64,000 nucleotides of DNA from Antedon mediterranea (Eukaryota; Animalia; Echinodermata). The notes below the pieces were generated by a model. That model saw only the letters and a program-made list of their open reading frames with translations, was not told the origin of the DNA and made no database searches. The stretch covers positions 10,106,001-10,170,000 of the forward strand of contig NC_092672.1 in assembly GCF_964355755.1 (NCBI RefSeq), written 5' to 3'. Position 1 is the first letter of the stretch. Each line of letters begins with the position of its first letter. A program made the translations under genes and the position numbers. Positions 6,888 to 45,944 of the stretch are shown here, in pieces.

Positions 6888-7007
6888 TTAGGCTTCATAA
6901 TGACCAGGAAAGAAGAACAGTTTTTTGGTAAGCATGGTAACAGGTGCTGGCATCTGTTTGTTACGGCCAGAAGAAGATTCAAATGCACGAGCTACTTTGT
7001 TGTTCAC
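6888..7007 (-). CDS. CASP9: Caspase last coding exon: VNNKVARAFESSSGRNKQMPAPVTMLTKKLFFFPGHYEA*
   Basis: KQMP...LTKKLFF C-terminal caspase motif; tttatag|GTG acceptor; TAA at 6890-6888. Confidence 0.95.
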   Translation of the reverse strand: MNNKVARAFESSSGRNKQMPAPVTMLTKKLFFFPGHYEA

Positions 7008-19000: not shown

Positions 19001-21389
19001 AAAGTAATAAATTTGTGTTTTTTGTTTACATGTATAATAAGCAAATTATCAAAAATATGATTTAGTATAATTAAATGAATTGTTATAATTGGAACTTGCA
19101 CTCCTTGACCATGGTCTTGAATGTAAAGTTCTGTCTACACTATACTAACTAGTTTGACAAAAAAAATGTGATGTTCCCAAATGTGGTAATGATATGACAT
19201 TAAATCATGTCCATATATGGGCACATCACATGTTTTTGTCACATAAAGTTCAGGGCCGTAGCCAGGATCTGTCAAGGGGGGGTTCGCACACTAAGTATTT
19301 TGGTCACCCCCACCCCCATACCTACCCCCCCCCCCCTGGGGTGGGGCCTGAGGCGAAGCAAATTTTGTTAAATGACACCCCTAGATGGCCGGAAAATACA
19401 CTCTCATGCAGCATGCTACCAATGAGCAAAACGATCGTACTTGGACTCGTGGACTATTTAAACGATAACATTTGTTGCCGTATGTTAGATGCGCGTGCTC
19501 TGTGCGGAACCGCCGATTTTTTTATCATTTACTCGATATTTTGTTTTGCGTTCAAGTTCAATGATAACGTACGTCTAGGAGAAGCCCCGAAAAAAGCACA
19601 CTGGGTGAAGGCAAATGCAATTCTTATTATAGCTCTATCAATAATATTTATTTACAGCAATTTGTTGAGGAAATTAAATATGCCAATGTAAATAGGTGAT
19701 ATTGATACATTTGAGTACGTATTGGCTGGTGGTCTAGAAAAAAATAATCGGATGCCATAATGTGAACTACAGTACATGATACCATAGATATTATAGTGTA
19801 AAATATTAATATTCACTATAATCCTCTATGATACATTATACTTCATAGCCACACATAAATACTGATGTATGTCGGAAGGCTATATACTTTATGCATGCTG
19901 CCTGACCGCCAGTGATCTAAACAATTGGTACGCAGTTGTCTGGCGGTGTTCTTTGTACGAATCGTTCGTCCCCCAGCTCGCTGTGAGACGCGTCAATATC
20001 ATGTTACATGCAGGGACCAAACATTTATTTTTCAGGTTAAAATCGGCAATTCATTTGCAACTCTTAGAAATTTACAGACTATATCGCTCGAAGTACGCTC
20101 ATACAGGGAAGAAGGTACTGTATGAGTTATTCCGAACGAGTTTACGAATTTTTTAATTTACGAACAACTTTTTGTACTGTGGGGCACGTATTTGGACGAT
20201 TTTCGGAGATGAGGGTGAGGTATTGGGCATGTCGGGGATGGGGGTTCGCAGTCGGTTAAGGGGGGTTCGCTGTAAAGGGGGGGTTCGCCCGAACCATAAA
20301 AACCCCCCCTGGCTACGGGCCTGAAGTTTGATAGTGTAGACAAGGTTTAAGGCAAGTTTTCTATATAGGATGATTTATAAATGCAGGTCCAGTGTACACC
20401 TGTGTACCTTTAGGAAGTAAGGGGTTGCCCTAATGTAGTGATGCTGTCGCAGTAGACAAATGAGCGCTGTTTGAGGCAGCTGAACACAAATTGGACCTTT
20501 TAGCTATAAGATGGCATTTAGTCCAGTTGCACTTTGAGACAGTGTTATCTATCATTTTTATCAATCAATGTTATTATTATCATCTACATTACCCTCTGAG
20601 ACTTGCGTCGGAAACTTGCGTGTGGGATTAAAATCTCCACTGCCTTCTGCAACACTCTGCTGCACAGGTGGCTTGTCTCCAACACTTGGTTGCATAGGTG
20701 CTTTGGTATCATTTTCAAATTCATAATAGCTTAAATCGTACAATGTATCTTCAGTAAGGTCTGGTATTAAAAGTGTAGCTAGATGGTACACCTCAGTAGC
20801 AAATAACGACTCTGCTAATGCACGGAATGCCTTTGGCCCTTTACGAACAATATCATTTAAGATTGCAGTATTTCGATCAGTTGTTCCATTCATACTCTAT
20901 AACAACAAATTATGAGAAAATATTACAATTTGACTTGTTGTTTGTTTGTTTTTATTATATATTTTACATTCAATTATTTTATAAAATATTTTGAAAACAT
21001 AATACTTTTAATAGTCATGCTATGCCTAGTATCCAGATTATTATGTTGGCATAAATGGTTTTTATACAATCAATTTTTCTCATTTGTCCAATTTTAAAGA
21101 TTGTAGAAAAGTAAAAAAAAAGTGTTAATTTTCTAAAACAATATTGTAGTACAGTTTACTGTATGTTTAGTTTCATTATAAGAGTAACCAGTATTATATT
21201 TCAATATAAGAACACGTATCTTTTGTATTATTATTGGGTTATAAAAACAATCCTACAAACCCGGTATTTTTCATCTTCAGATGTATTAAAAATTTGTCTA
21301 GCCACTAATTCGTTCAAGATATCCATGGGCATATCGCTAACTAATGTTATACGATTCGTTCGCAGAATCTTCTTGTGTGCAGCTTCCAT
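6888..21389 (-). CDS. CASP9: CARD-containing initiator caspase, caspase-9-like, ~453 aa. Eight coding exons: 21389-21261, 20896-20593, 18959-18874, 18026-17859, 16316-16100, 14698-14471, 13126-13017, 7007-6888
   Basis: All junctions are GT-AG and phase-consistent; the exons sum to 1362 nt ending in TAA. N-terminal CARD (MEAAHKKILRTNRITLV...RKGPKAFRALAESL). Large subunit: KPRGKALIVNN, RKGTDVD, catalytic His in VLTHG, Cys in GKPKLFFIQACRG. Linker DETDAIGS. Small subunit: [33 protein letters not shown]...KQMP...LTKKLFF. Caspase-9 rather than caspase-2 is judged from motif resemblance only. Confidence 0.92.
8265..8691. mobile_element. MITE/foldback element with long TIRs and internal 21-bp GGCGGCCG-containing tandem repeats
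   Basis: TACGGAAGCCCGTTCGGGCCACAAGTTAAC...GTTAACTTGTGGCCGAACAGGCTTCCGTA; flanking direct repeat TTTATG; left end duplicated at ~8449. Confidence 0.85.
9094..11219 (-). mobile_element. Non-autonomous TIR DNA transposon (~1.07 kb family), outer copy, interrupted by a second copy
   Basis: Termini CAGGCCCGTAGCCAGG...CCTGGCTACAGCCCTG; 5-bp TSD TAATG (9089-9093, 11220-11224). Confidence 0.92.
9588..10636 (+). mobile_element. Same family, inner copy in opposite orientation
   Basis: CAGGGCCGTAGCCAGG...CCTGGCTACGGGCCTG; 5-bp TSD TGTAT (9583-9587, 10637-10641). Confidence 0.92.
11880..12305 (-). mobile_element. SINE-like remnant (Nin/Deu-domain-like)
   Basis: GGTTCTTTAAAGTGC...CACGGGAC...GTTTATAGTTCTTATCTGAGAAAACT...CCGCTAGGCCA pattern (recognition only). 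Confidence 0.4.
13017..13126 (-). CDS. CASP9: Caspase exon 8: [37 protein letters not shown]
   Basis: Substrate-binding S-W-R and GSWF motifs; ttgttag acceptor; ATG|GTAAG donor. Confidence 0.95.
13565..13735. repeat. Long palindrome, probably a MITE
   Basis: AATAATGAATGTTT...GAATGATGAAAGGTTATATCAAC / GTTGATATAACCTTTCATCATTC...AAACATTCATTATT. Confidence 0.7.
13905..14460 (-). repeat. Degenerate tandem copies of the 3' end of caspase exon 7 in intron 7
   Basis: Repeated variants of cagttgcatagg-ctaaaagcatg-tcactgtggct-aggcagcttaga. One copy translates SKLPSHRNHAFNCAYAAVP versus exon [17 protein letters not shown]. Confidence 0.75.
14471..14698 (-). CDS. CASP9: Caspase exon 7: intersubunit linker and start of small subunit
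   Basis: ORF 14454..14696 (MFDQGVEATDG...[28 protein letters not shown]); CCAG|GTAAG donor. Confidence 0.93.
16100..16316 (-). CDS. CASP9: Caspase exon 6: catalytic His (LTHG) and Cys (QACRG)
   Basis: ORF 16086..16301; tttttag|GAC acceptor; G|GTGAGT donor. Confidence 0.96.
17050..17520 (+). mobile_element. LINE 3' fragment (L2/Rex1-like)
   Basis: RLQRILNKVGRI...DDSNHPLN...RYFNSFVPYSIRLLN C-terminal motif, then T-rich UTR and AATAAA. Confidence 0.7.
17525..17765 (-). mobile_element. SINE-like remnant
   Basis: GGCTTTACGTCCCATCTAAAGGACGAGGCAA...GCCTAAGGATAC resembles common invertebrate SINE cores (recognition only). Confidence 0.4.
17859..18026 (-). CDS. CASP9: Caspase exon 5: start of large subunit, NYTIKSKPRGKALIVNNRNFRSMPLRKGTDVDARQL...
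   Basis: Canonical caspase PRG-x-ALI-NN and R-x-GT-x-x-D motifs; poly-T acceptor; GTGAGT donor. Confidence 0.93.
18406..18690 (+). pseudogene. Inverted, near-identical copy of caspase exon 3 inside caspase intron 4
   Basis: Matches the reverse complement of ~20608-20897 with a 5-nt deletion and few substitutions; flanked by direct repeat CTGGATTTA (18397-18405 and 18691-18699). Confidence 0.9.
18874..18959 (-). CDS. CASP9: Caspase exon 4: prodomain linker (A)WPQKTADEVLQMKMSKGNYTSEMTDSPQ
   Basis: 86-nt exon (tttag|CT ... CAG|GTAGTG) that restores frame between exons 3 and 5. Confidence 0.8.
19251..20323 (+). mobile_element. Third copy of the 5-bp-TSD family, nested in a small palindromic MITE (~19124-20350)
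   Basis: Same TIRs; TSD AAGTT (19246-19250, 20324-20328); host ends TGTCTACACTAT / ATAGTGTAGACA. Confidence 0.9.
20593..20896 (-). CDS. CASP9: Caspase exon 3: CARD C-terminal half plus linker
   Basis: Within ORF 20561..20893; acceptor ttatag|AGT; donor G|GTAATG; phase 1. Confidence 0.88.
21261..21389 (-). CDS. CASP9: Caspase coding exon 1 (gene exon 2): CARD N-terminal half, MEAAHKKILRTNRITLVSDMPMDILNELVARQIFNTSEDEKYR
   Basis: ATG at 21389; acceptor AG at 21404-21403; donor GTTTGT from 21260; phase 0. Confidence 0.88.
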
Positions 21390-22487
21390 GATTCAGTAAA
21401 ATCTGTTGAATAAATAATTTAATTCTAATTATTATTAATTCACTGAATATTATAACAAGTTTAGAATGAGAAAACTTTTTGGGAACCTTATTCGATCAAC
21501 ATAATAATAATAACCATAATATACAGTAGTATTAATATAGAATTGATGACTTTAAAAAAAAAATACAATAAAAATAATACTGTATATATATAGATTATTC
21601 ACAATTTGATCACTTAAATTAAAGAAACACAACCATATTTAAACTCTTCTTCCTACACTTACAGTATGTATTGATCAGTAACTATATTCAGTCAGTATAC
21701 AGTACAGTACTTAACATCTATAATGCCTTTCATTAATAATTATTCAAAATGTACTGTAGTGAACGATGTCGTCCGAGCGTCTACAGTGACAGATGAAATC
21801 AGTTGATTGCGTTTTGAACCAGTCACAATAAAATCAATTTTGGATGGAGCACTGCTTTTAGATACTGTAGTGCAGGATTGTTTTTTTTTTATACTTTTCT
21901 TTTAATCTACATTTTTTAAAACCATTTGTTAAACTGAAATCATTCAGTAAATTACTGTAAAACAATATTAGTAACCTCCTATTATGACCAAAATAAATTA
22001 AAATGTTTCCTGGTCGCTGTGTAAGTTTGGAGCAATTTTATGCACTCTGGCCGCAATTCAATTTGGCTTCCTGTGTTGGTCACAGTGCATATCGGCCGCC
22101 AGTCATTTCGGCCGCCGGTTATGGAACGCCTAAAATCATGAAACGCCAAAAAGGACAAAATATGTATTGTTCATTTCGGCCGCCAATCGTCAATATTGTT
22201 AATGTATGGCACGCCTCAATTATAAAAAATGGTGTATACATGTGCCTATCGCCTGAATAGACGTGCGTATTCAAAAAGCAAGCAGCAATCAACAAAAACG
22301 ATCATACTTTTTGATTTGTATAGAGTTGCGCTATTTTACGGTCATTCGCCGGCTTCTTCTCCTGACTGAGCCCTACAACCTCTCAGCACCCCCCCCCCCC
22401 CCCCCACACACACATAACAACCACTGTGAAATAAAATAAGTTGTGTAGAAATACTTTAGTTAAAACTACTAAACTAATGATTTACAC

Positions 22488-24847
22488 GGTCTTTTGATGA
22501 TATCGGTCGCGTTTGAAATCGGTCGCCCTATTTTGTATGGAGCGGGATGCATGCTAGCGGGATATACATTTTCTTCATTTATATAGATTTAATTGATATT
22601 TTTTAGGGGCTAGATTATTTATGTGGATATTTTTTATTTGGTTATCAATCGGAGAAGGACTATGTCTTTCCAAAATAGTCATTTCTAAACACGTTTAAAT
22701 ATTAAATTAGGTAAATATTATATCAGGCATATAATAATTTACCTCCAGTTATGTGTACTGTAATTAATATATTATATAGAGAATATACGTCTGTCCTTTA
22801 TTATGCAAACAATTACGTAAAAGAGAACAATTTATTTAAAAACAATAATTGTTACAATGTATAGCCCGTAAAAAAGCCAGCGTATCCATTGTTATACTTA
22901 TGCATACTGTGGCAGATTATATCATGTCGTTAACAACATACTATTCGATCACCTAATTTTTATTTTTTTATTTTATTTACATCCGTTATGTAGGATAATA
23001 TTAAGTGTATAATAATAATTGTTGAGACAAATCACGTGTATACTTTTATTTCTAGTGTTTAAAATAGTTGTTAGTAAAAATGATCATTATATGCGGATGG
23101 TTAAAAGGCGAGTTACTGAAATAAACCCCCGAATAAGCCATATTGGGGGAGATTCGCCTTCTATGGCGTATATAAGACCTATTTTAGAATATGCTGCCCC
23201 TGTTTGGCATGGCGCTATCACTAAGGACATGTCCAAGTCTATTGAAAAGGTACAAAAGAGAGCATTGCGTATCATGCTAGGTAACAACTATTTGTGCTAT
23301 GATCATGCATTGTCTGTTACTGGTTTACCTACTCTTGTAGAGAGAAGAAACAAACTTGTGTTGTCTTTCGGGGAAGGCTTATTAAAATCCGAGCTGTTTA
23401 GAGAAATACTTCCCCCTCTTCATAAGCCAGCTCGGTCTCTCAGAGTCAACCGCTTTCTAGAAGTACCTCATTGTAAAACCAGCAGACTTAGGTCGTCTCC
23501 AGTTCCCACCATGGTGGATATAATTAATAGGCACCACTAGCTCTTTTTTAGATATGTAATAAGTGAATGTTTTAAGGTTTTTTATTCATGTATGTTTTTA
23601 ATTGTATGGTACGATATCTAATTTTATTAAGATGTTTCTATTTTTATAGCAATTTTAACTAATTTTTAGTCATTTGTAATACATTTCATTTCAGTCCTTG
23701 ACTGTCGTTTTGTAATATATTTTTATATACCGAATAAATAAATAAATAAAAATGATCGTGCAGCTGTTTCCTCTCTAACAATGCGTTATTTTGCTGACTG
23801 GGTTTCCCCTTTTTTAAAAGCACGCACTTGTTAGTGTGTCAAATCATGGACAAAACACGACGTACGATCGTTGTCCATGGCCAGGTAAAGATGACGTCTA
23901 TTACTAATAACCATACTTTTAAAACGTCTATAGGCCTCCTGCACGTGTTTTTGTGAAACGATGTATATAATTTACGTATACTGTACGTCGATACTATAGA
24001 TTTTAATTTGAAAAATATCTTTTATTTCTTTATTTACAATAATCATTTAATGTAATTAAGTAAGTAGTCTCACATAACATCCATACGACGTTCGTAAATC
24101 TAAACGTTTAAATATCAGTACCTCTTTGAGAATCGTGTCCACCTATAATTATCCATACATTATTCTCACATCTATCATTGTACATCATAGACATACTGTA
24201 GGGCTGGTAGATTGATTTATAACGGAATATTATCTATATATTTTATTATTATCCTAAACCATGCTCACGTCAGAGTGGCGGATATCGAATGCAAAAATCA
24301 TCATCATGCATCAAATTCCTGTATTGCATAAACCTCATTGAGCTGGTATCCACTTGCAGGTATAGAACGAGTTTCGTAATTAACTGTGATTAAAAAATAC
24401 GCAATAGGCGCGTCTACTTGTTTAACAATTAAATTATTATTTATTTTCAAAACCTTAAACAACGGCATGCTAAAAGAACACATTACAATTCATTCAAACC
24501 TGTAAGATAAAATGGAAAAACAAATTATTTATAAATAATGAGATAAATATTTATATTTACTGTACTTAAAAAATAACGATCGAGGTTTAAAAAAATGTCA
24601 AACAGTATTATTAGAAATTCCAATATTCAAAATTAACTAAAAACATAATGAAAATGTATCTAATGCGCCATATACAAATTAGTGCGACCAAAATAAAACG
24701 CGACCGATATCGTAACTAATAGGATAAAAAGCGTATCTAGCGGCGCTCCATACAAAATACCGGATGTTTATTTTATCGCGACCGATTTCAAACGCGATCG
24801 ATTTCAAACGCGATCGATTTCAAGCGCGACCGATTTCATCTGACACC
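22488..24847. mobile_element. Nested TIR element with GCGACCGATTTCAAAC subterminal repeats
   Basis: GGTC...GACACC ends; direct repeat ATTTACAC at 22480-22487 and 24848-24855. Confidence 0.7.
23160..23752 (+). mobile_element. 5'-truncated LINE (CR1/L2 group): 3' end of ORF2 plus tail
   Basis: YIRPILEYAAPVWH...IEKVQKRALRIM...GLPTLVERR motif; (AATA)n tail. Confidence 0.85.
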
Positions 24848-25693
24848 ATTTACACACGTCTATTCAGGCGATAGGCACATGTATACACCCTTGACAAGTA
24901 AGTAAGTAAAAATACGTTATTAACAATATTGACGATTCTGGCGGCCGAAATGGACAATACATATTTTGTCTTTTTTGGCGTTTCATGATTTTGGGCGTTC
25001 CATAACCGGCGGCCGAAATGACTGGCGGCCGAAATGATCAGACACCCTGTGTTTGGGTAAATGTAAACGACACTTGCTAGCCTATATGTATATTTATGCT
25101 ACCTACCTTTTAAATTAGTATTAGAAGACTAAGAAATTAACTTCCACTTATCAATTCATTGCAATTTTTGTACTACATAATCAGTATCAATAATGTTATA
25201 AAAGTATTGATGATTGTAGGGCCTATTTTCCGTGTTTAGCTTAGGCCTACTTCTACTAGCTTGGTAGGCCTAAATAGGCCTCCTCCTACTGGACTCTAGT
25301 ATAATAGCTAGCCTTAGTAGAGGCCTACCAATTGAATACAATAATAGAATACACTCACTACCAAAACTAGGCTAGCAGTAAATTACTAGGGCCCTAGTGT
25401 CAGGTGGCACAAAAACACATAACAATTTAGTAGTAGTTATGTCATTGGGCTAGGACACATCACCAACAAATGTAGGCCTCTTAGGCATAATTGGTCTAGG
25501 CCTAGCTAGGCCAGCCTACCCAGTCCTACTACTAGGCGGGAGCTAGCCTAGCTAGGCCTAGCCCTACCGGATAAGGGACGGGGATAATCACTCTGAGTCT
25601 CATGGTTAAATAATAATAAGCTACCCTACCTAGCTAGGCTTAGGCCTAGCCCTCCCTAGCTATAGACTAATGTATTGCTAAAACAGCATTTAC

Positions 25694-25860
25694 CTGGAAC
25701 AATTCTTTAAAAATCAAGCCAATTAGATATAAATTAAGATATTTTATAGGATTTTTTCTGGCTTTTTGTTTCTCAGAATCGAATGTCCTCCTTCCTTTTC
25801 TTCACTAACAGCGCCACCAACCATTAAAATTAGTCTTATGGCACGTCAAATAGGACATTA
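25694..25860 (-). promoter_or_regulatory. Probable non-coding first exon and proximal promoter of the caspase
   Basis: Strong donor CCAG|GTAAAT at 25694/25693. The block, including CAGCGCCACCAACCA and an ACGTCA (CRE-like) site, is conserved in the paralogue at 38680-38850. The TSS is not determined. Confidence 0.55.
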
Positions 25861-29127: not shown

Positions 29128-32100
29128 TTAATGACGAGCGATGGTGATTGTTGTTACTTTATTCTGCTGGTCTGCTGTTATGTTGCACTCGACTGGAAAT
29201 AAACTTCTGAATGCATCGACACCTAGTGACAATGATTTAAACACTTCATGATCACAAATGAGTTGTTTGCATTCCTTTGTTAATAACACCATATGTTCAC
29301 TGTCGAAGAAAATTCAAAATAGTAAAGTATGAGAACTTTTGAAATAATTTAAACAAGGGTAATGTTTACATTATGAGCGGTCTGAACGGTTTCATTTAAA
29401 AAGTTTAGAAAATTGGTATATTAGAACTCTAGTATTAAAAGTTATCACTAACACCCGTCTGAAACCGCAAAATGGGATGTCACCTAAACCTGCTCAGTAA
29501 AACAATTGGCTACAATCAAATCAATGTTTTCTCTATGTTTATACTATGTCTATGTATGTTGTGAATATGCCCTTTCAAAAGAAAGTGGACAGGTAAATAG
29601 AGAAGGAGCAGGGTGTGGATAAGAAGTTGGTAAGAAGGATAAGAGGTTTATTGAATGATAAACAAATCTGCAATTGTAATATGAATACAGATCATATTTT
29701 TTGTGGTGTTGTTTCAGACTATTTAGTTTACAGAATTAAACTTACACTGTGGGATCAATACCACAGATGATTTGTTTCACAACTTTAATGCTTTTGTCAG
29801 GAGGTTGAGACAGAATCTGTAGCAAAACAAAATTATTATCAATATGTTAAAGCAACATGTACTTCCGGAGCCTGGGTGTAATTACTTTGGGAGACAAGTA
29901 TGTAACTGGAATGTAGCCTAGTTTTAATTATGTTAGTTTAGGTTGTAATTATAATGTAGGTAGTCTAGGATGTACGGTAATTATAATGTAGGTAGTCTAG
30001 GATGTAATTATAATGTAGGTAGTCTAGGATGTACGGTAATTATAATGTAGGTAGTCTAGGATGTAATTATAATGTAGGTAGTCTAGGATGTAATTATAAT
30101 GTAGGTAGTCTAGGATGTAATGTAATTATGTTAGTCTAGGATGTAATTATAATGTAGGTAGTCTAGGATGTAATTATAATGAAGGTAGTCTAGGATGTAA
30201 TGTAATTATGTTAGTCTGGGATGTAATTATAATGTAGGTAGTCTAGGATGTACGGTAATTATAATGTAGGTAGTCTAGGATGTAATTATAATGTAGGTAG
30301 TCTAGGATGTAATGTAATTATGTTAGTCTGGGATGTAATTATAATGTAGGTAGTCTAGGATGTAATGTAATTATGTTAGTCTATTATTAGTTAATTATTA
30401 TAATTAATAAAGAATAGACTAGGTTGTAATTATAATGTAGCCTAGGATCTAATAATATATTATATAGATTAACAAGAACATATTGTAAAGCATCGGGTGA
30501 AATCCTGAATATCAAATAATTAATTTGATACAATAAAGATTACTCTAGTAGCTAGATCAACTATGCACTTTGAGGTCCAGAGAATTTGACTTCAGAAATT
30601 GGTTTAGGATGGTCAAACAATCATTTTTGGCTTGGTTACACAATATTCAGTCTAATGGCACATTTTAGTCAACAATGACTGGAAATGCCATTTCTGACAT
30701 TTGATTCACAACCCAAGGCATGTACAGTATGTATCTCCGTAACTACTGGTCGTAGACACTTCAATTTGCTCTTAAATTGTTTGAAATATACATTTTGTTA
30801 TTTGTTACACATTTTGAAAAATGTTATAAAAGGTCAAAGGGTCAGGGTTATATGAACAAATATAAATAGGTACTTGTATCTTGGCAACCACTGGTCGCAG
30901 CAAGTTAATTTTGGTCTCAAAATGTTCAGAAGGCAGACAATTCAGTCTAATGGGACATTTTAGTCAAAAATAATCAGAAATGCAATTTCTGACCTTTGAC
31001 CCACATACTAGGGCATCTTCATATCTATGTAAGTACTGTTCGTAGAAACTTAAATGTTGTATCAAATTGTTCGAAATATATATATTTAGATTCATTCTAA
31101 TAGAAAATTTGGTTAAATGATGACCAGAAATACTATTAATTACTAATGTTTCAAACAAAAAACATATCTGTATACAACTTATCCTTGGACAGTAATGTTA
31201 TGTAATAACTTATGCTTAAAAATTGTTTCATTATAGGATTTAAAACAAATTTTTGTAATTGTATTTTTGCTTATAATAATGCTAGAAAGTATTGTTGACC
31301 CCCGAGGACGATCAAACATTTTGATAGAAACATCGAGCCCAAGAAGTAACTTACCGAATTCATCCTAATAAACGCCTATTGGTGTTTGGTCTTATAACCT
31401 TTCAACCTGACCTTTTGACCTTTCACCACATTTTCAAAATGTGTAACAAGCCAAAAATGATTGTTTGACCATGCTAAACCAATTTCTGAAGTCAAATTCT
31501 CTTGACCTCAAAGCTCATACAAAAGTTTATCTACAGTAACTACTAGAGTAGATGAGGAAATCTGTGAGAACGAGCAAAAGCCGCCTCAACCAAGATTCAA
31601 ACTTGGAACTTTCTGCTTTAATAATAATTTGAAGAAGTTACCTCTAGGCGTGTAAGATTCGTTGTTTTTAATTCTGGTTTTTGTTTAAACATATCCACTT
31701 CGACATTAGTGAAGAGGAATGTTGCACCATCATGCTCTTCAGTAATTTCATCAGCCTTTTCACCCCAGAGTTTTAATTTAATTGTTGAATTTGTGTTTTT
31801 TAAAACCATATCACGGCGTTGCCAAGGGGTAATTTTTTCTCCAATTTCTTTTTCTCCGATCTGTTTTAAAAAAAAACAAAAAAACATCAGTATAACAGAA
31901 GGTTTGTTAATAGTCTTTTGGAAATATAATATATAGCACCCTCTATAATTTTTCGAAAAATGTTAAGATATTTGCAATTCATTAAAAATATTTTTTAGCA
32001 CAACATGCACCCTCTATGTGTGTTGATATCGTCTTGAAGTTTCAATTTCAACAACCCTGTGAGGAATTAGATATCACATGTTATAATCATTTCGACATTG

Positions 32101-35100
32101 TATTATTAGCGATAATGCCGCAAAAACATCCTCCAGTTACCAAATTTTACCCACCCCAATAGGACAATATCGTGTTCATCGTAATATGCAAAAAAAAATT
32201 CTGAAATAATAAAAAACCCAAAACTTTGATTTATGCGAACTTTTTTATAAACGATAAAATAATTCAAATTGTTTTGCTTTTATTTATTATATATTATTAT
32301 ATATTTACCGTACTGACGCGGGTATAAGCCCATACTCGGGTATAAGCCCACCCCCGACTTTTGACTAATTTTCATGAAAAATGAGGCACTCGGGTATAAG
32401 CCCACCCATTAATTCGAAGATCTACAGTGTGTGTCGTAATACATATTTTTGTATTTGGCGACGTCCATACACCGAATACACCTACCTTTGATCATAACCA
32501 AGCTAGGCTAATATACGCTAGGCCATAAGAGGCCTAGCGGTCCTGTTTTGTTTACACTCCATCGCGGTCGAAGATCGCTTCACACACGACGCTACATACA
32601 AGTCGCCAAAACGGAAAACCACTATTTGGTATCGGCTGCCATAAACAAGCTTATTAAATTTCTTTGGTACATTTCTATTTAACGAACATTGTATACTTGC
32701 TTTTCTGCTTGATAAATTCTTGTTCAATTGATGTTTAAAATAAGATATTCTACGATAAATTACATGAACTATAAGCTTAATTAATAATCGTGTATTTAGA
32801 GGCAACGTCGTACACGTGAGGGCGCTCGCTTGCATGGTGGAAATACACAGTGTACATGTGCAGTTTTTGACGATCTGCATTTTTGGATCCTCGGGTATAA
32901 GCCCACCCCCCAAACTTGACGTGATTTCATGTTCGAGGGGGGTGAGCTTATACCCGCGTCAGTACGGTATATATTCCATAAGAATTTCATATAAGAAAAC
33001 ATAGTTTTAATCATTGAATTGACAAAAAACAGGAATTCCAAAATAGCTGTAATGACGTCACATGACATCATTAATATGCAAATTACCTTTTTTTACTCCC
33101 AACTGTAGACCAACCTTTTGCCCACCACACACCACAAAAATAATTACAAAATTATCTCATTTAGTATCTTTTATGACAGTCAGGGTTCGAAAATCACCCT
33201 AACAATTTGCAAGTATATTTTGTTTTTTTTCTAGTTACAAATTTAATAGTTATAATGTTTGCTGGTTACTATTAATGTATGGTTGGATATTGATATGAAA
33301 TAGTTTGAATGATTTTGGAAAACTGATTGAAAACAAAATAATATTGTAACTTACCATTGTAACTTTTCCTTGGATAGTGACTCGTCTTCTTTTGGGGCTT
33401 CTCACTGCCTCCTCAATGCTCACCTCATCTGGAGTAAAAAATTTGTTCAATTTTTCTTGTGGGATTTCAAAATCATTGTTTCCCCCTTGAAACACCTGTA
33501 AAGTAAAAAAAAGTAGTAATGATTTGAATACAAATTGGTTCAGTAATTTTGGGTGTCTAAATACCAGAGGTAAAGTTCAACTGCACAGTATGTGAATGTG
33601 GAGTTTGACTGCCAGAGGATTTAAGAGAAATCAATAATTAAATGGTAATCATTTACCTTGGATGTTCCTTTTTTAATTATCAATTCCTGTGTGTTTTCTT
33701 TGAAACGTAGTGTTGCATTTGTTACTATTTTGTAGTCATCTTTTGTAATCTTTTTAACAAATGGAACGTTTTTTGCTGATACTATTCCTCGTAAATATTC
33801 TGATTTGTCATTAAAGGCATGAAATTCCCAGTAGGTTCCATGGTCAGCAGGAGGTGTTAAAACATATATGTATATCATTTCCATATACTAAAAGAAAGAA
33901 TTGATCGTTATCAAATCATGTGATCAAATGAACACTGTATCACATTGTACATTGGGTGTGTAGTGTGTAGGAACATTTTTAAGTTAATTTATTTGATCAG
34001 TCACAGAGTCACAGTGCCACATGTTACAGTTACATATTTAAAAAAAAAGTAGAGTGACTCTACAATATGACACGCTCTTCAGGATAGTATTTCATCTGTA
34101 TATTATTATAAGCTGGGTTAAAAACATTCTGTTAGGGTATGTTCAGATCCATGGAGTTATGCTTTCGTATCGCAAGCAATGTCACATTATAATTATCATA
34201 ACTGTAACAGCAAACTAATGCTTTCTTTAGAAACTGAAGAAGTCCAATTTGGGCGAGCATCTGGTATGCAGGTTGGAGGTCAAAATCGTTGATGCATGAC
34301 TTTCATATTGTAAGCATCGTTCGCTAATCTTCTGCCTTGAGATGATGAACGAAAGATCAGTGTTGTAAGAGTAAAGTAATCTTTTCCTGGTTCAAACCTA
34401 TGGAGTTGTACAATATGAAAGCACAACTCCGTAGGTCTCAACAGGCCCTTAGTGTTGGAATCCAGATGAAATTTAAAATTGATCAGATCTCACCCTTGAT
34501 ACATGAATGTGTGTTATGCATTATGAATATTTTGAAGAAAATATAAAAGCCCATGGGCTATTCAAAGGGGGACGTTTGTAACTACAGCAATATGCCCATT
34601 TTTTATAAAAGCCACTAGTACTTAAGGGACACTTTTCCTATACTCACTTTGTCTTGTTGAATTGCAGTGTTTGAAGAAACTAAAGATAAGAGAGAAAAAA
34701 AGTAATGGAAAAATACTGCAATAAAAACATTTTCAAAACAATATCATGAGTAACAATAACAATTTTTAAAATCTGTATGGCCAAACGATAAAAGTATGCA
34801 TTTTGTCAGTTCACCACTGAAGTCCATTTAGAATTAAAGTATGGAGAATACACATTCTTAGCAACTGAAGTTATAGTACTGTACTGTCAAAGACTATCAG
34901 AAAAAAATCGTTGATTGCTTTCTTCTGAACTTATTTCACAGCATACAACAACAACCAAGCCACGGACTGGCCAAACAGCTGAACCAACATAATGAAGCAA
35001 ATATATGAGAGTCTATGGTTGAGGCAGAATTAAGATTTCTTTTTAGGTAAAAATTGTGATAAACCACTGAAATTATCAAGCAAAACTTCATCACAGCATG

Positions 35101-35752
35101 GGTCCCTTAATAACGCACATAGCATAATGTCACTGTGTCGTGATCGTATCCATACACAGTACTGTAGGTAGTTTTTAATACAGTATATTTTGATTACATT
35201 GCATTCACTAAGAGTAACGCATAATTTTGTCTTTTCCCTTAAACAGCAAGTGTGTAGTACACTACATGATCCACTAACTTTTATGTTGGTTCAATAGAGT
35301 TTGCTATGTTTTTCGGAGGTTTGCAGGGTTTAGCAATTAATTTTTAACCAAAAAATGATGTTTTACTCCAAAAATAAGTAGTTAACAAAAACAATTTAAC
35401 ATTAAAAAAAAAATTGAAATATTAGGTGTGTAGTACACTACACGATTCACTAGCTTTTATGTTGGTTCGATGGGGTTTGCTATGTTTTTTCGGAGGTTTG
35501 CTGTGTTTAGCAATACCCCCAGTAAGTTTTGCCAACTTCAAATTATTCTTCAGATTATAGTACAGTTAGAAGTAGTTAACAGGATTACAATGGCAGAAAA
35601 TTCAAAAGAACAACAGTCTTTCTAGATAAATCAAAAAAATTAATAACAGAGCTATGATATACATTACCATCAGCCAAGACTTGTCTTGTGGCATTCCAAT
35701 TTCTACCCCGCTTCTGCAGCACCTTGCTTGTCTCCAACTGGCTGGCTTTCAT
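29128..35752 (-). CDS. Tandem OB-fold nucleic-acid-binding protein (RPA/SSB-like, HIN-200-like), ~316 aa. Exons 35752-35668, 34679-34648, 33887-33657, 33495-33355, 31860-31642, 29816-29746, 29299-29128
   Basis: All junctions are GT-AG with consistent phases (1,0,0,0,0,2); 951 nt, no internal stop. OB signature RRVTIQGKVTMIGE...RRDMVLKNTNSTIKLKLWGEKA...GATFLFTNVEVDMFKQKPELKTTNLTRLE. The two short 5' exons are less certain; an alternative start is Met 33884. Confidence 0.75.
29925..30450. repeat. Minisatellite (TAGGATGTAATTATAATGTAGGTAGTC and shorter variants) in OB-gene intron
   Basis: Directly visible tandem array. Confidence 0.95.
30541..31550. mobile_element. ~1-kb TIR element inserted in a SINE remnant
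   Basis: TACTCTAGTAG...GAGAATTTGACTTCAGAAATTGGTTTAG is inverted at 31440-31550. Confidence 0.7.
32306..32969. mobile_element. Tc1/mariner/pogo-type MITE
   Basis: TACCGTACTGACGCGGGTATAAGC...GCTTATACCCGCGTCAGTACGGTA; TA ends; repeated GGGTATAAGCCCA motifs. Confidence 0.85.
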
Positions 35753-35885
35753 TACTGAAATCATAAAAACTTAACATATAATTTATCTTCAGTGAGGTCT
35801 GATATCTATATAAAGTATGGTTAATTCTGACATAGGCGAGCACAATGCAAAAACCTCGGTACAAATCTGCGCCTTGGATACCTAC

Positions 35886-36210: not shown

Positions 36211-37093
36211 GTATAGTACTGTAGTACATAAAGATCAAATTAAATATATTCATAAAAAATTGGAGTATTATTGTGGGAAATAATTATATAAAATTACATC
36301 GAGAGAATTGATGATAAGAGCTTTTGTTTAAGATCGAATGAAACCCCGATAGCCGAGTTGTTGAGTAAGCTGCCAGGACTCATGGATGGATACTTCTGCC
36401 CATATTGCAAGCCGTCTAAAAGGTCTTCCTTCTTAGGCCAAAACGACTCACTGTGTTGCGGAATAATATGTATTAACTATACCGATTAGAATGGTATTTA
36501 TTTGAATAAACGCCCGGAACACCTCCCCAATAAAACATCAATTAAAATAATTATCACCACTCTCCTCCCCCCCCCCCCCTCCAATACCATCTAATTAACG
36601 CCCATCCCAATTTATACACACAATATTGTATTATATTTATAACACAATTATACTATTTTTTAGTAGATTTCATCGGACTGTTATCTACAATTTACCAAGC
36701 ATTTGTTATTCTTTTTTACCACTTTTCATATCTACAATAAACACTATACGTAAAACGCTATTAATCATCTAAAACACTGTGAAACAGGTTAGTGAGTAGG
36801 TTTAGTTTTACGAATATCAAAAGCATTTAAATAATGGTAACCGATCGAAATCGTCCAGGCCAGAATGTCCTTCTAAAACTTTTTACCAGAGTCACTATCA
36901 TTCCGAGAACCATGGTCTACACTTCCTAGAGGGGGAGCAAGCGAAGCGAGCTCACCCTCTAGTTAATATAAAGTATAGCTAAATGCTGAGACCCAGTAAA
37001 AACAAATGATTGCCGTTTGGTGGCAGCTAAAGGATTGATGCAACGAAATATAATCCACAGCGATTTAAGATGGTGTTTATTATCTATTATTAT

Positions 37094-37863
37094 CTATAAC
37101 ACCCTGAGACTTCTTGTTGGAAACTTGCCTTCTGCAACACTCTGCTGCACAGGTGGCTTGTCTCCAACACTTGATTGTTTGGTATCATTTTCAAATTCAT
37201 AATAGCTTAAATCGTACAATGTATCTTCAGTAAGGTCTGGTATTAAAATTGTAGCTAAATGGTGCGCCTCTGCAAATAATGACTCAGCTAGTGCACGGAA
37301 TGCCTTTGGCCCTTTATGAATAATATTATTTAAGATTGCTGTATTTCGAGCAGTTGTTCCATTCAGACCCTATAAAAAAAGAAATTATGAGAAAAATATT
37401 ACAATTTGACTTTGGAAATTCATCTGTGCACAAGAGATGATTTCTGTTGTTTTTTTATAACATTTGTTAATATTTTGAAAACATAAAAGACATTCTATGC
37501 CTAGTATCCAGATTAATATGTTGGCATAAATGGTTTTTATAAAATCAATTTTTCTCATTTTTCCAATTTTAAAGATTGTAGCAAAGGAAAAAAAGTGGTA
37601 ATTTCCTAAATTAATTTATAATTTTGTAGTAAAATACTGTATGTTTAGTTTAATTACAAGGTAACCAGTATTATATTTCAATTATTTAAGAACCTGTACA
37701 TCTTTTGTATTATTGGGTTAACAATCCTACAAACCAAGAATTTTTCTTGTTCAGATGGCTTAAAAATTTGTCTGGTCACTAATTCGTTCAAGACATCAAT
37801 GTGCATATCGTTAATTAATGACATACGATTCTTTCGCAGAATCTTCTTGTGTTTAGCTTCCAT
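37094..37863 (-). CDS. CARD-only paralogue of the caspase, ~134 aa (exons 37863-37735 and 37369-37094); possible 5' half of a CARD-OB fusion
   Basis: MEAKHKKILRKNRMSLINDMHIDVLNELVTRQIFKPSEQEKFL|GLNGTTARNTAILNNIIHKGPKAFRALAESLF...KFPTRSLRVL*. Splice sites of the first coding intron are preserved; deletions of 3, 9 and 24 nt are all in frame; no catalytic exons follow. Confidence 0.75.
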
Positions 37864-38679
37864 GATTCAGTAAAATCTGTAAATAAATAATTTAATTCTA
37901 ATTATTATTAATTCACTGAATATTTTAACAAGTTTTATTAGAATGAGTTAACTTTTTGGGAACCTTATTCAATCAATATAATAATATTACCATACAGTTA
38001 GTGTTAATATAGTATAATGATGACTTATGACTTAAAAATACAATAAAAATAATACTGTACAGTATGTGTATAGATTATTCACAATTTGATCACTTAAATT
38101 AAAGAAACACAACAATATTTAAACTCTTCTTCCTACACTTACAGTATGTATTGATCAGTAACTATATTCAGTCAGTATACAGTACAGTACCTAACACCTA
38201 TAATGCCTTTCATTAATAATTATTTAAAAAGTACAAGTCAGTCACGATGAAATCAACTTTGGATGGAGCACTGCTTTTAGATACCGCCTAGGCCTAGATA
38301 CTGTAGGCCTAGGCCTAGTACACGATTATTTTTTTTATACTTTTCTTTTAATTTACTTTTTTTTTAAACCATTTGTTGTAACTGGAATCATTTTAAAAGC
38401 ATATTAGTAATTACAGTAAGTACTGCAAATGTAATCTAGGCCTAGGCCTAGTCCTACCGGCCAATCACTCTTCTCGGCTCGGGGTTAAGCTATGCCTACT
38501 AGCCTACACTAACTAAGTACAGAGGCTAGGCCTAGGCCTACTACTACTACCAACAGGGCCCAGCCCAGACAGGGGTGTCACGAAACCTAAGATCACGAAA
38601 GCTAAGACCCAAGAACTAAGATTACAAATAAACACTATAAATCTAGTATAGACTAATGTATTGATAAAACAGCATTTAC

Positions 38680-38850
38680 CTGGACCAATTCTTTAAAAAG
38701 CAAGCAAATTAGATATAAATTCAACTACTGTATTTTAAAGGATATTTTCTGGCGCGGCTTTGTTGCTTTGTTGCTTTTTCCTTTTCTTTACTCCACTAAC
38801 AGCGCCACCAACCACTAACATTAGTCTTTATGGGACGTCAAAAGGGACAT
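38680..38850 (-). promoter_or_regulatory. Duplicated non-coding exon 1 and promoter of the CARD-only paralogue
   Basis: Homologous to 25694-25860; donor CCAG|GTAAAT intact; GACGTCA site. Confidence 0.5.
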
Positions 38851-39026
38851 TATAATTCAATTGTTACAAGAGTCAAGTGTTGATGGTACTTTATGAATTG
38901 ATACAGTTACTAGCTTAAACAATTCATTTTTGTCTATATTCGTAATGTTCTAATTGTTGTCAAAGATAGTGTAGTTTTTATTATTAGTGTACAAACAATT
39001 TAATAGACAAATTCATTCATTTCATG

Positions 39027-40796: not shown

Positions 40797-41520
40797 ACTC
40801 CATTAATAAATTATACCCATCCATAAAGGTGGTGAGGTCTCAAATATCAATAACTATAGGCCCATCTCCATCTTGCCAACTATTTCAAAACTACTTGAAA
40901 GAATAGTTTATGATCAAACTATTTCATTTCTTACAAAGTTTAACATCCTCAGCAATTCCCAGTTTGGTTTTCGTTCCCAACATATCTACAATACATGCCG
41001 TCCATCATTCAATCCATAATATTTTGTCTGCTATTGATAATAAACAATTTACTGTAGGAGTTTTTATTGACCTGTCAAAGGCTTTTGATTGTATTTCTCA
41101 TAATATTTTAATTAACAAGCTACGTTTCTATGGTATAAGAGGTATACCACTTCAGTGGTTCGAAAATTATTTAAGTAACAGCCAGACATCAATTTACATC
41201 AACAATCAATGATATTGCCTCTGAGCTGCGGCCAGTTTCGTGTGGTGTTCCACAGGGATCCATCCTTGGTCCGCTTTTATTTCTGTTATTTATTAATGAT
41301 TTAAATTGTATTAGTGATTGTGCTGAAATTGTTATGTTTGCAGATGATACAAGTTTATTTATTAATCATAAGGACATCTACCAAGCTATTATTTTAATGA
41401 ATCGTGAACTTACTAAAATTGCAAACTGGTTAAAATCTAATAAGCTTTCGTTAAATATTAAAAAAACCAAATTTATTATTTTTCGTTCAGTAAATAAACT
41501 AATCCCCCCCCAACATTCCT
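40797..41520 (+). mobile_element. Frameshifted LINE reverse transcriptase fragment
   Basis: NYRPISILP, FIDLSKAFD, GVPQGSILGP, MFADD. Confidence 0.9.
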
Positions 41521-41571
41521 AAATTTATAATTCGGTTACATTTAGGAATATATTTAGTTATTACCATAATA

Positions 41572-42010: not shown

Positions 42011-43924
42011 GTATTATAAATTATAAATATTTTATTTTATAATCATAAGCTTGTTTCAAATCCTATATAAATAATCTCGATTTTCTTTGATGAGTTCAAA
42101 ATACGCGCACACATTTTCGAACGGTATGAAATCATTCGGAAATTAAATGTTCATATAAAAATAATAGTAATATCAAATTATGTAAATAAATGATTCACAT
42201 CTTTGCCTAAAAAAAAAAAATAGTTTAGGCCTACTGTTTTTTATAAATTCAAAAGCAAATGAGTAGTGGAGTGGGTGGATCTCGAATACAAATAAAATAT
42301 ATTGCATGCCAAAAATAATAATAAATTGCAGGCCTTACTCAGTATGAGTGTTTATAATAATACAGTATATATATTTAACACCACCCCAGCCACCCGCTCC
42401 ACTTCTGCAAAATGAGGAAAAAATAATGTTTTCTACACCCAACCTGTACTCAGAAGACACGTTTGAGTGTGCCAAATGGTTGATTCAGAGGTCACCAAAA
42501 ACATCAAAACATTTTTATTTATTTATTTTGTTATCTATTTAATACAAAAATGGATATCATGATAATTATGATAATAATTATGATACTTCCTCTGGCTTGA
42601 CAATGACAGTTTTCATGGTGAAACACTCAGAATGAACCCCTTTAAAAATAATTGGGTGCTGCAGGATTTACTGATTTTCAACAACTTACAAACACAAACC
42701 AAAAACCTATTCCTAATACAAAATAGTATTTTGGTTTTTCGTTCCATTTGGAGTAATGAAGGCTGTTGAAATTATTCAATTAATTAATTAATTTAAAAAA
42801 TAAAATATTTGTATATGAAGAAAAACATCCAATAAAAATGTTTTTAAAATTTTCTTCAATAATTATATTTTACATTATAGTAAAATGATTAATAGTAACT
42901 ATCTCTAATGGTTTGCTTCTTTGCACTATCCTGTGGTGTATGAAATGGCAAAACTGCATTTTGTAAACATGGCAACATCACCAGAATACATTAAGTACAA
43001 AATACTGTACAATAAAACTAATTACAGAGCTATACTGGCAGGATAACTTAATTTTAAAAATATAATATTTGTATCTGAAGATCAACATGAACATTTCTCA
43101 TCCAATAAAAATGTTTTTAAAATTTGCTTCAATAATTATATTATTTACATTATAGTAAAATAATTAATAGTAATTAATACTATCTCAATGGTTTGCTACT
43201 TTAAACTATCCTGTGATGTATGAAATGGCAAAACTGCATTTTGTAAACATGGCAACATCACCAGAATACATTATTGCAGTAAAGTACACTACTGTACAAT
43301 AACATTACTAAACTAATATTACAGAGCTAGACTGGCAGGATAATTTAATTCAACAAAAAACATGGCAATTTTTTAGAATCTTTTCTTTTAAAACATAACC
43401 TGTACATAAAAAAAAACTAAACATAATTAAGCGTTTTCATTACAACACAAGCATCTAGAAACAGCGATAATGTGTATCTAGTGCGGCGGCCCATACAAAT
43501 TAGCGCGACTAAAATAAAACATGACTGATATCAACCGTAACTAATATGATAAAAAGCGTATCTAGCTAATGCTGGACTGAAATGTCCTGTATTTGTCTGC
43601 CTCTCCCGGCCCCACCCTTAGATCTGTTTGTATGTTTCCTACAATGCTTACATACATAAGCACTGAATCAATATTGATATAAATCTTTTGTAAAAATAAT
43701 GAAAGGTTCTATGGTATTTCTTGCATTTTTAATAAAACGAAAAAACTATGCAATTTGTTCATGATTTAGTATGAAAAGATATAATCTATAATTTAAAAGC
43801 AGTTGAACAATACAACACAACTTAAATTGATTACAACATTCCCAGTGTTTTAGTGGATACACGTTCCTATAAGGTATTGTGCTCTTGTTGTTGCCCATAA
43901 CAGGAAAAGCAATCCACTGAAACT

Positions 43925-45826
43925 TAATGACGAACGATGCTGATTGTTGTTACTTTAGTTCTGCTGGTCTGCTGTTACGTTGCACTCGACTGGAAATAAA
44001 CTTCTGAATGAATCGATGCCTAGTGACAATGATTTAAACACTTCATGATCACAAATGAGCTGTTTGCATTCTTTTGTTAATAACACCATATGTTCACTGT
44101 CGAAGAAAATGAAAAATAGTAAAGTATGAGAACTTTTGAAATAATTTAAACACGGGTAATGTTTACAGTATGAGCGGTCTAAAAGTTTCATTTAAAATGT
44201 GTAGAAAATTGGTATATAAGAACTCTAGTATTAAAGATGTATTGTTCCTAAAAACACAGAAAATGAAGATTAATATAAAAACATCTACAAAATTACAAGA
44301 TAAAATTATCTTCTTGACTTCCTGTTGTACTGGATGATACCGGAGGGAATAAAGGATTTAGCAAATCGATTTGTTTTCACACTGAGGAGCCTCAATCTAC
44401 CACTTGGATTAAGTTGGTCTATGATCACTTTGTGCAGAGGATGAGAGGCATGCGTTCAAAATCTTTCTGGAGGCGTTCTATGTGCACATCGGTAAAGAAA
44501 GGCAGTTCCAGACCAATCAAATCCCAATTGGCTGCTGACAGCCAATTTTACCATTTTATGGTTTAAATTACACTTGTTTTTAAGGTAAATATATATTTTT
44601 TTTTCGATCTAATTTTTTGTAAAAGTGAATAACTATTATTATGTAACAATAAAATTGCTTATTCAACAAAAAAAATTTTTTTCAGGGGGACAATACATCT
44701 TTAAAAGTCTATCCACAACACCAATATGAAACTGCAAAATGGGACATCACCTAACCTGCTCAGTAAACTTAGATTTACATAAAGCAATTGGCTACAACCA
44801 GATGGATGCTTTCTATATGCTATTGTGAATATGCCCTTGGAATTCTTGTAAAGTGTAAACACATAAATAGAGGAGCAGGGCATTGATAAGATCATATATG
44901 GCAAACAGGTAGCTGTAGCAATGTTTTAAACACTTTATGAACACAAAGAACTCTAGAATTAAAAATGTATTGTTCCCCAAAAACATGGAAAATAGGCCAT
45001 TTGCAGCTTTAATAGGGTATTGCTAAACTGCGCAAACCTAAAAAAACCTGCGCAAACCTCCTCCAAATCACTTATTATTGGTTCTATCATGACAAGGACT
45101 ATCATAGCAAGTAATTAATGAAAAAAAAAATGAGGAGGAGGTTTGCGCAGGTTTTTTTTCAGGTTTGCGCGATTTACACTGTAAAATCTGACATTTTACC
45201 CAAAAAAATGATGGTTTTCGCCAAAAAAAAAAGCCAACTTACAGCAATTTCATAATTTTGTTTTCATAAATTATTTGCTATGATAATCCTAGTCATGATA
45301 GAACCAATAATAAGTGATTTGGAAGAGGTTTGAGCAGGTTTTTTTTAGGTTTGCGCGATTTACACTGTAATATCTGACATTTTTACCCAAAAAATGATGT
45401 TTTTCGCCCCACTTACAGCAATTTCATAATTTTTTTTTTCATAAATTACCTGCTACGACAGTCCTGGTCATGATAGAACCAATAATAAGCCATTTGGAGG
45501 AGGTTTGCACAGGTTGTTTTTTAGGTTTGCGCTTGGTTTGCGTAGTTTAGCAATACCCCTTTAATAAAATTAATCACTTTAGTTGAAAAAAAACACTTTG
45601 TTTTCAATAATAAAAAGACAAAATAAACAGAAGAGGATTATTGAATGATTATTGAATGAATGATAAATAAATCTGCAATTGTAATATAAATACAGGTCAT
45701 ATTGTTTGTATCATTGTTTCAGACTACAGTATTTAGTTTAGCGAATAAAACTTACACTGTGGGATCAATACCATCGATGTTTTGTTTCATAACTGGAATG
45801 TTTTTGTCGGGTGGTTTAGACAGGTT
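43925..45826 (-). pseudogene. 3' remnant (last two exons, 45826-45756 and 44096-43925) of a second OB-fold gene copy
   Basis: Paralogous to 29816-29746 and 29299-29128. A 1-nt insertion gives a premature TAA at 43955. Upstream exons were not found; LINE sequence starts after ~46630. Confidence 0.75.
45013..45560. mobile_element. TTAA-flanked TIR MITE (Kolobok-like) with ~170-bp internal repeats; related remnant at ~35250-35520
   Basis: GGGTATTGCTAAACT...AGTTTAGCAATACCCCT flanked by TTAA. Confidence 0.75.
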
Positions 45827-45944
45827 CTGTAGTACAGTAATTGCAAGCAAAACAAAATTATTATCAATATGTTAAGGAAACGTGTACTTCGGGAGCCTGG
45901 GATGTAATTACTTCGAGAGAAAAGAATGTAACTGTCTAGAATGC

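What the first reader, a model, noticed from the sequence alone, without database searches (positions are those of the whole stretch)
37094..37863. CARD-only caspase paralogue, a possible decoy analogous to human CARD16/17/18
It keeps the promoter block, exon 1, the ATG exon and exon 3 with intact splice sites. Three internal deletions (3, 9, 24 nt) all preserve frame. The exon-3 donor decayed (GTAATG to GTGTTA), giving read-through to TAG and a 134-aa protein with no catalytic domain. Human COP/INCA/ICEBERG arose from CASP1 by similar partial duplication; here the parent is caspase-9-like, so it could compete for Apaf-1-like platforms.
Basis: partly seen in the sequence, partly recalled or inferred. 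Interest (0 to 1): 0.75.

Follow-up and report, generated by a model that had tools for sequence, protein, structure and literature searches.

The report
Caspase CARD fused to DNA-binding folds
In a feather star, a copy of the front end of a cell-death protease gene sits in frame just upstream of a gene for predicted DNA-binding folds, and likely splices into it, which would make a hybrid protein built like the mammalian DNA sensor AIM2 rather than the short decoy first proposed.

Summary
The partial duplicate is real: exons 1-3 of a CARD-caspase (ATG 21389) are copied at 38815-37094, and read-through gives 134 aa. A +1 and a -2 indel follow the three in-frame deletions. The 24-nt deletion creates a near-perfect GC donor (AAG|GCAAGT, 37128) in the parent's phase. 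Downstream on the same strand lie older caspase exon-3/4 relics and five intact exons of an unnamed tandem OB-fold gene. The chain splices in frame to a 411-440 aa CARD-linker-OB-OB protein. Relatives of the OB gene in sea cucumbers, a crinoid, a nemertean and a priapulid lack a CARD; a full-length relative's model matches HIN-200 domains best, tied with RPA/Teb1. The locus looks like a tandem-duplication chimera with AIM2-like architecture (about 45%). No RNA covering the junctions was available, the CARD shows dN/dS near 1, and the only protein on record is a 154-aa OB fragment. A dead CARD fragment (30%) and the CARD-only decoy (22%; new AATAAA after the stop) remain open. 'Caspase-9-like' is not established.

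The parts
38680..38815 (-). Duplicate of caspase exon 1 (non-coding; 5' end approximate), donor CAG|GTAAAT
37735..37876 (-). Duplicate exon 2: ATG at 37863, first half of CARD (43 codons)
   Evidence: Pfam CARD E 0.0094
37129..37369 (-). Duplicate exon 3 up to the new GC donor: second half of CARD plus linker, with 3- and 9-nt deletions
   Evidence: Pfam CARD E 0.082
37123..37131 (-). New GC donor AAG|GCAAGT made by the 24-nt deletion, phase 1 (use inferred)
37076..37128 (-). Alternative end: +1/-2 indels, decayed donor, TAG at 37096-37094, AATAAA 13 nt later (CARD-only isoform)
35668..35754 (-). Older copy of the caspase exon-3 3' half (homology from ~35810, 23% diverged); open 87-nt phase-1/1 exon with GTAATG donor, optional in the model
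34648..34679 (-). Older copy of the start of caspase exon 4; keeps the acceptor, net -9 nt, new donor GTGAGT where the parent has ATGAGT; phase 1 to 0
33657..33887 (-). OB-gene exon O1 (first OB fold; the family's start Met is codon 2)
33355..33495 (-). OB-gene exon O2 (inter-OB helix, SPKRRR motif)
   Evidence: a paralogue's O2-O3 junction is spliced in run X1
31642..31860 (-). OB-gene exon O3 (second OB fold)
   Evidence: Pfam REPA_OB_2 E 0.0017, below cut-off; P0004
29746..29816 (-). OB-gene exon O4
29128..29299 (-). OB-gene exon O5 with stop
43924..45826 (-). Upstream copies O4' (45826-45756) and O5' (~44096-43924, +1 insertion) at the start of the duplicated block
6888..25830 (-). Parent CARD-caspase gene, ATG 21389, 453 aa, QACRG; identical to P0005

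Best explanation
The duplicated caspase front end is in frame with a downstream OB-fold gene and likely serves as the first half of a chimeric gene, predicted to encode CARD-linker-OB-OB-small barrel (411 or 440 aa). Shown in sequence: the OB gene lies directly upstream of the caspase; a block holding the OB gene's last two exons plus caspase exons 1-3 is repeated ~16.5 kb upstream; older caspase exon-3/4 relics lie between that block and the OB exons; the whole chain is open, with AG acceptors after the ATG exon and GT or GC donors. Inferred: tandem duplication (two rounds, or one plus conversion) put the downstream OB gene under the caspase promoter; new donors (GC at 37128, GT at 34647) restored in-frame splicing. 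Most likely mechanism, untested: the OB folds bind exposed or foreign DNA, cluster their CARDs along it and recruit the neighbouring caspase through a ~70% identical CARD, activating it by proximity without an adaptor. A CARD-only isoform by intronic poly(A) may be made as well.
For: Open chain of 440 aa (411 without the optional exon), no internal stop. GC donor: 1 site of its class on the 64-kb minus strand; 7 of 6257 possible deletions (2 of 121 with microhomology) make an equally strong phase-1 donor; GC donors carry a stronger consensus (PMC3167603, passages). Indels before the GC site keep frame, those just after it do not. The exon-4 relic gained a donor in phase with the OB start codon, net -9 nt. 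The 276-codon OB ORF is intact where a neutral one would survive 0.5-2% of the time. Fold: Anneissia relative P0034 (pLDDT 90) matches HIN-200 domains at Foldseek ranks 1-7 and VIA Z 15.0, rmsd 5.6, 177 aligned; the window's own exon O1 folds as an OB, Z 9.2, rmsd 2.0, 77 aligned.
Against: No transcript joins the CARD exons to the OB exons in any data seen. The only protein on record for the OB gene is 154 aa and starts at the last Met of O2, without CARD or OB1; no long protein other than the parent carries the duplicate's exon 3 (74 candidates). CARD dN/dS is 1.02. O2 differs from its paralogue at 8 non-synonymous and 2 synonymous codons. The GC-donor test is post hoc and uses a recalled, approximate matrix; the deletion has GCA microhomology. 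The OB gene could have its own promoter in the 760 nt before O1. HIN is tied with RPA/Teb1 (Z 14.1-14.4), and the OB pair is not basic: 32 K+R against 30 D+E. DNA binding and CARD-CARD binding are untested.
Confidence: 0.45

Rival explanations
1. The CARD exons are a decaying by-product of tandem duplication (pseudogene fragment or untranslated leader); the OB gene is expressed on its own or as a short form.
For: dN/dS about 1; a neutral CARD plus linker stays open 9-15% of the time at coding-like indel rates; LINE fragments in the copied promoter; other copied exons are damaged (O5' +1 insertion; the 35.8-kb relic has stops in all three frames from its first AG); no duplicate-CARD protein on record; the recorded OB protein has no CARD.
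Against: Two new donors both fall in the phase needed for fusion; splice sites of exons 1-3 are kept; no stop despite about 27 non-synonymous changes.
Confidence: 0.3
2. One reading: a 134-aa CARD-only protein made by read-through and intronic polyadenylation, acting as a decoy or modulator of the parent caspase, like CARD16/17/18.
For: Open 134-aa frame; AATAAA 13 nt after the TAG, absent from the first 300 nt of parent intron 3; human CARD16/17 arose next to CASP1 and are converted by it (PMC11630849, passages); a near-identical tract in exon 3 suggests conversion here too (1-2 differences in ~120 nt).
Against: AATAAA occurs 1.5 times per kb on this strand; it does not explain in-frame linker deletions, the phase-1 GC donor or the in-phase exon-4 relic; the converted tract is the linker, not the CARD; no such protein on record; the parent's class and platform are undetermined.
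Confidence: 0.22
3. The arrangement is an assembly artefact (haplotype duplication or misjoin).
For: No contig in the laid runs spans the whole stretch; the DNA runs are one sample and may be the assembly's source.
Against: The copies differ by 9% with independent LINE insertions; X2 contigs over 37287-37875, 35463-35836, 34291-35308, 33476-34161 and 31484-32148 match with 0 differences at even depth, 130-153.
Confidence: 0.03

Closest known systems
Human CARD-only proteins CARD16/17/18 (COP, INCA, ICEBERG)
   Same: Partial tandem copy of a neighbouring caspase's promoter and CARD exons; signs of gene conversion with the parent.
   Different: Here the copy lies upstream of an unrelated intact OB gene and has a new in-phase donor into it; the parent is not a caspase-1 type by any test run; no expression shown.
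AIM2 / PYHIN receptors (PYD + HIN-200)
   Same: Predicted architecture of an N-terminal death fold, a linker and tandem OB folds whose best structural matches are HIN domains.
   Different: CARD instead of PYD, so no adaptor would be needed; no sequence-level HIN match; an extra C-terminal barrel; OB pair not basic; independent, apparently recent origin. HIN is reported as mammal-only (PMC3458909, PMC11747288, passages).
RPA70 / Teb1 / POT1 tandem OB ssDNA-binding modules
   Same: Tied with HIN by Z; weak Pfam REPA_OB_2 and archaeal SSB profile hits.
   Different: No CARD fusion among the relatives found; the family is a stand-alone 270-280 aa protein of unknown role.
Chimeric genes formed by tandem duplication across two neighbours (general mechanism, recalled)
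   Same: Layout O(3')-C(5') / O / C is what such an event leaves.
   Different: Two layers of caspase-derived sequence (9% and 23-28% diverged) point to repeated duplication or conversion.

Membership tests
CARD-only decoy proteins (CARD16/17/18-like) | CARD copied from a neighbouring caspase by partial duplication | tested here: met
CARD-only decoy proteins (CARD16/17/18-like) | Transcript ends after the CARD, no further domain | tested here: inconclusive
   TAG plus AATAAA versus in-phase GC donor into OB exons; no RNA
CARD-only decoy proteins (CARD16/17/18-like) | Expressed; binds the caspase or adaptor CARD and changes its activation | not testable with these tools
   needs RNA, co-IP, cell assays
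PYHIN / AIM2-like receptors | N-terminal pyrin domain | tested here: not met
   The N-terminal exons match CARD and derive from the caspase CARD
PYHIN / AIM2-like receptors | HIN-200 domain (tandem OB folds) | tested here: inconclusive
   Top structural matches of a relative are HIN but tied with RPA/Teb1; no Pfam HIN hit listed
PYHIN / AIM2-like receptors | Binds dsDNA and nucleates caspase activation | not testable with these tools
   bench test needed
Caspase-9 orthologues (parent gene) | CARD and catalytic domain group with caspase-9 | tested here: inconclusive
   QACRG site; best PDB matches are caspase-3/7, CED-3 and others; CARD matches weak and mixed; no tree built
Unnamed invertebrate tandem-OB family (Anneissia LOC117101957-like) | OB-helix-SPxxRR-OB-barrel over 270-280 aa, starting at a Met aligned with O1 codon 2 | tested here: met

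The most novel reading that the evidence does not exclude
A feather star has assembled, by duplication across two neighbouring genes, an adaptor-free AIM2 analogue: a CARD borrowed from its own caspase fused to a HIN-like tandem OB DNA-binding module, so that stray DNA directly triggers the adjacent caspase. It would also point to an invertebrate OB family as the closest structural kin of the supposedly mammal-only HIN domain.
Probability: 0.17. Interest if true: 0.88.

Novelty: new variant of a known kind. Interest (0 to 1): 0.62.

Why it matters
HIN-domain DNA sensors are described as mammal-only, and how invertebrates sense cytosolic DNA is posed as an open question (PMC3458909, PMC11747288, passages). 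A death-fold plus HIN-like OB fusion arising independently in an echinoderm would be convergent birth of a sensor with its steps still readable in the DNA. One RT-PCR decides whether the fusion exists. Even if the CARD is dead, the locus exposes an uncharacterised invertebrate tandem-OB family whose fold is close to HIN-200.

Tried and rejected
No whole genome was held, so other copies could not be mapped. No RNA holder listed; this is not evidence on expression. ESM Atlas gave no usable hit for O1; for P0034 it gave OB/RPA-like clusters. PDB sequence searches with single OB exons found only chance rows, E 0.36 or worse. Foldseek with the 77-aa O1 model had no match at E 0.001 or better. P0016, one of the 27 hits, is a repetitive bacterial-type surface protein and was dropped as spurious. 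Positive selection on exon 2 (Nd 17.5, Sd 1.5) is not established: p 0.015 against pooled non-coding DNA, 0.36 against its own synonymous sites, 0.25 against intron 2. No complex prediction was run because the duplicate CARD spans two exons; CARD-CARD binding is open. Earlier scan notes: nothing relevant (one unrelated 3-word match). Literature searches (listings only) showed no title or abstract start describing this locus or a CARD-OB fusion; the library lacks most subscription papers. No supplements were read.

Full report
Setting. The window is animal DNA at about 33% GC. An eight-coding-exon model of a minus-strand CARD-caspase (ATG 21389, 453 aa, QACRG) is identical to P0005, which its source names 'caspase-7-like [Antedon mediterranea]' and which has Pfam CARD and Peptidase_C14 domains. 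No whole genome was held.

Observation. Self-BLAST shows a block from about 46.45 to 37.1 kb copied from about 30.45 to 20.6 kb. It holds caspase exon 1, the ATG exon and exon 3. The 3-, 9- and 24-nt deletions, the change of GTAATG to GTGTTA and the 134-aa read-through product are all present. DNA contigs of one sample match the unique parts letter for letter at even depth, but none spans the whole stretch.

Selection. Copied non-coding DNA differs at 205 of 2282 columns with 70 indels, 13 of them multiples of three. The CARD has Nd 26.5, Sd 7.5, dN/dS 1.02 over 86 codons; exon 2 alone has Nd 17.5, Sd 1.5, which is not significant against its own synonymous sites or intron 2. The linker differs at only 1-2 of about 120 sites, as after gene conversion. 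In simulation a neutral CARD stays open in 18-28% of runs and CARD plus linker in 9-15% at 0.003-0.005 indels per base. The intact frame alone therefore does not prove function.

What lies downstream. On the same strand follow an older copy of the exon-3 3' half (about 35810-35668, 23% diverged), an older copy of the start of exon 4 (34679-34648, 28% diverged over the aligned region), and five coding exons O1-O5 (33887-29128). The last three encode P0004, XP_071944601.1, 154 aa. O1-O5 give an open 276-codon frame from the Met at O1 codon 2; a neutral frame of that length survives in 0.5-2% of runs. One search found 27 proteins at E 0.001 or better, including P0004 itself and one spurious hit. 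Named ones are from Apostichopus, Holothuria, Anneissia, Lineus and Priapulus (10 of the 27 looked up). None of the 27 has a CARD hit at E 0.1. The four full-length relatives aligned begin at a Met matching O1 codon 2. The ancestral gene is thus a stand-alone OB protein lying directly upstream of the caspase.

Fold. The Anneissia relative P0034 was modelled at mean pLDDT 90. Foldseek ranks 1-7 are HIN-200 structures (p204, p202, MNDA and others; E 9e-12 to 2e-10), with RPA at rank 8. VIA gives p205 HIN Z 15.0 (rmsd 5.6, 177 aligned), tied with Teb1 and RPA70 at Z 14.1-14.4. The window's own O1 folds as an OB: Teb1 Z 9.2, rmsd 2.0, 77 aligned; a HIN chain Z 8.5. So the module is tandem OB, HIN-like in shape, not shown to be a HIN homologue. 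Its charge is near neutral.

The fusion path. The 24-nt deletion joins AAG to GCAAGT at 37128. This matches the 5' splice consensus everywhere except +2, as GC donors tend to (PMC3167603, passages). It is the top-scoring site in the exon, the only one of its class on the minus strand of the window, and in phase 1 like the parent's lost donor. Of 6257 distinct 1-60 nt deletions in the parent's linker, 17 make so strong a donor and 7 in phase 1; of 121 with microhomology, 2 do (approximate recalled matrix, post hoc). The exon-4 relic keeps its acceptor, has lost a net 9 nt and has GTGAGT where the parent has ATGAGT, in phase with the O1 acceptor and Met. The chain 37863-37735, 37369-37129, [35754-35668], 34679-34648, O1-O5 is open: 440 aa, or 411 without the bracketed exon. 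Frame-breaking indels appear only after the GC site.

History (inferred). Duplication of a segment running from the OB gene into the caspase leaves O(3')-C(5') upstream of a second O and the whole caspase, which is the layout seen. A second OB copy exists: runs X2 and X5 hold a genomic paralogue of O2 at single-copy depth, and X1 holds a contig with the same 10 differences that continues into an O3-like exon instead of the intron (read by eye). This shows that the paralogue is spliced at the O2-O3 boundary; it says nothing on the window copy. Whether that paralogue owns O4' and O5' at 45.8 and 44.1 kb is unknown.

Against. No RNA joins the CARD to the OB exons in anything seen. The recorded protein lacks both the CARD and OB1, and no longer form or 134-aa form is on record (word-index searches, weak negatives). 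An AATAAA 13 nt after the TAG fits a CARD-only isoform, though the hexamer occurs 1.5 times per kb. O2 differs from its paralogue at 8 non-synonymous and 2 synonymous codons.

Mechanism. Best guess, 45%: a chimeric CARD-OB transcript from the copied caspase promoter. Its protein would bind DNA through the OB folds and recruit the neighbouring caspase by CARD-CARD contact, like AIM2 without its adaptor; DNA binding and recruitment are inferred only. The full sensor reading is put at 17%. Rivals: dead CARD fragment 30%, CARD-only decoy 22%, artefact 3%. Fusion and CARD-only isoforms can coexist.

Known systems. CARD16/17 arose beside CASP1 and are converted by it (PMC11630849, passages), which fits the origin but not the downstream anatomy. 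PYHIN proteins need a pyrin domain, which is absent, so this is not a member; HIN domains were not found outside mammals by sequence search (PMC3458909, passages; restated in PMC11747288, passages). PMC13043383 (passages) speaks of echinoderms lacking vertebrate-specific DNA sensors. Listings of searches showed nothing on this locus or fusion.

Verdict. A real feature, partly misread. Most likely a young chimeric gene with AIM2-like architecture, unproven without RNA. Interest 0.62; new variant of a known kind.

Noticed in passing
window 18412-18691 (+): Inverted 99% copy of most of the parent's exon 3 inside its intron 4. It could pair with exon 3 in the pre-mRNA; skipping exons 3 and 4 (390 nt) is in frame and would remove half the CARD. 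The parent-type allele's depth in X2 (354 against about 145) fits two copies.
   Followed up: partly
window 29128-33887 and relatives P0007, P0027, P0031, P0034: Uncharacterised tandem-OB family in echinoderms, a nemertean and a priapulid whose model is closest to HIN-200, RPA and Teb1; conserved SPxxRR motif and two Trp motifs.
   Followed up: yes
runs X1, X2, X5 on window 33290-33574: A second, transcribed copy of the OB gene lies outside the window, about 8% diverged in O2 with mostly non-synonymous changes.
   Followed up: partly
window 39007-40392 (+) and 40907-41522 (+): LINE reverse-transcriptase fragments (461-aa open frame; identified by recalled motifs) inserted in the duplicate's upstream region.
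   Followed up: partly
window 46840-49042 (-): Broken LINE-like element with PHD-like, esterase-like and endonuclease-like pieces (recalled motifs) at the upstream edge of the duplicated block.
   Followed up: no
window 29900-30460 and 45900-46630: Minisatellite (21/27/48-nt units) in the O3-O4 intron; the duplicated block begins in it, so it may be the breakpoint.
   Followed up: no
window 9146-11154, 19243-20323, 51593-52294, 61821-62889: Nested inverted-repeat elements and 21-nt tandem arrays in both orientations, probably non-autonomous transposons.
   Followed up: no
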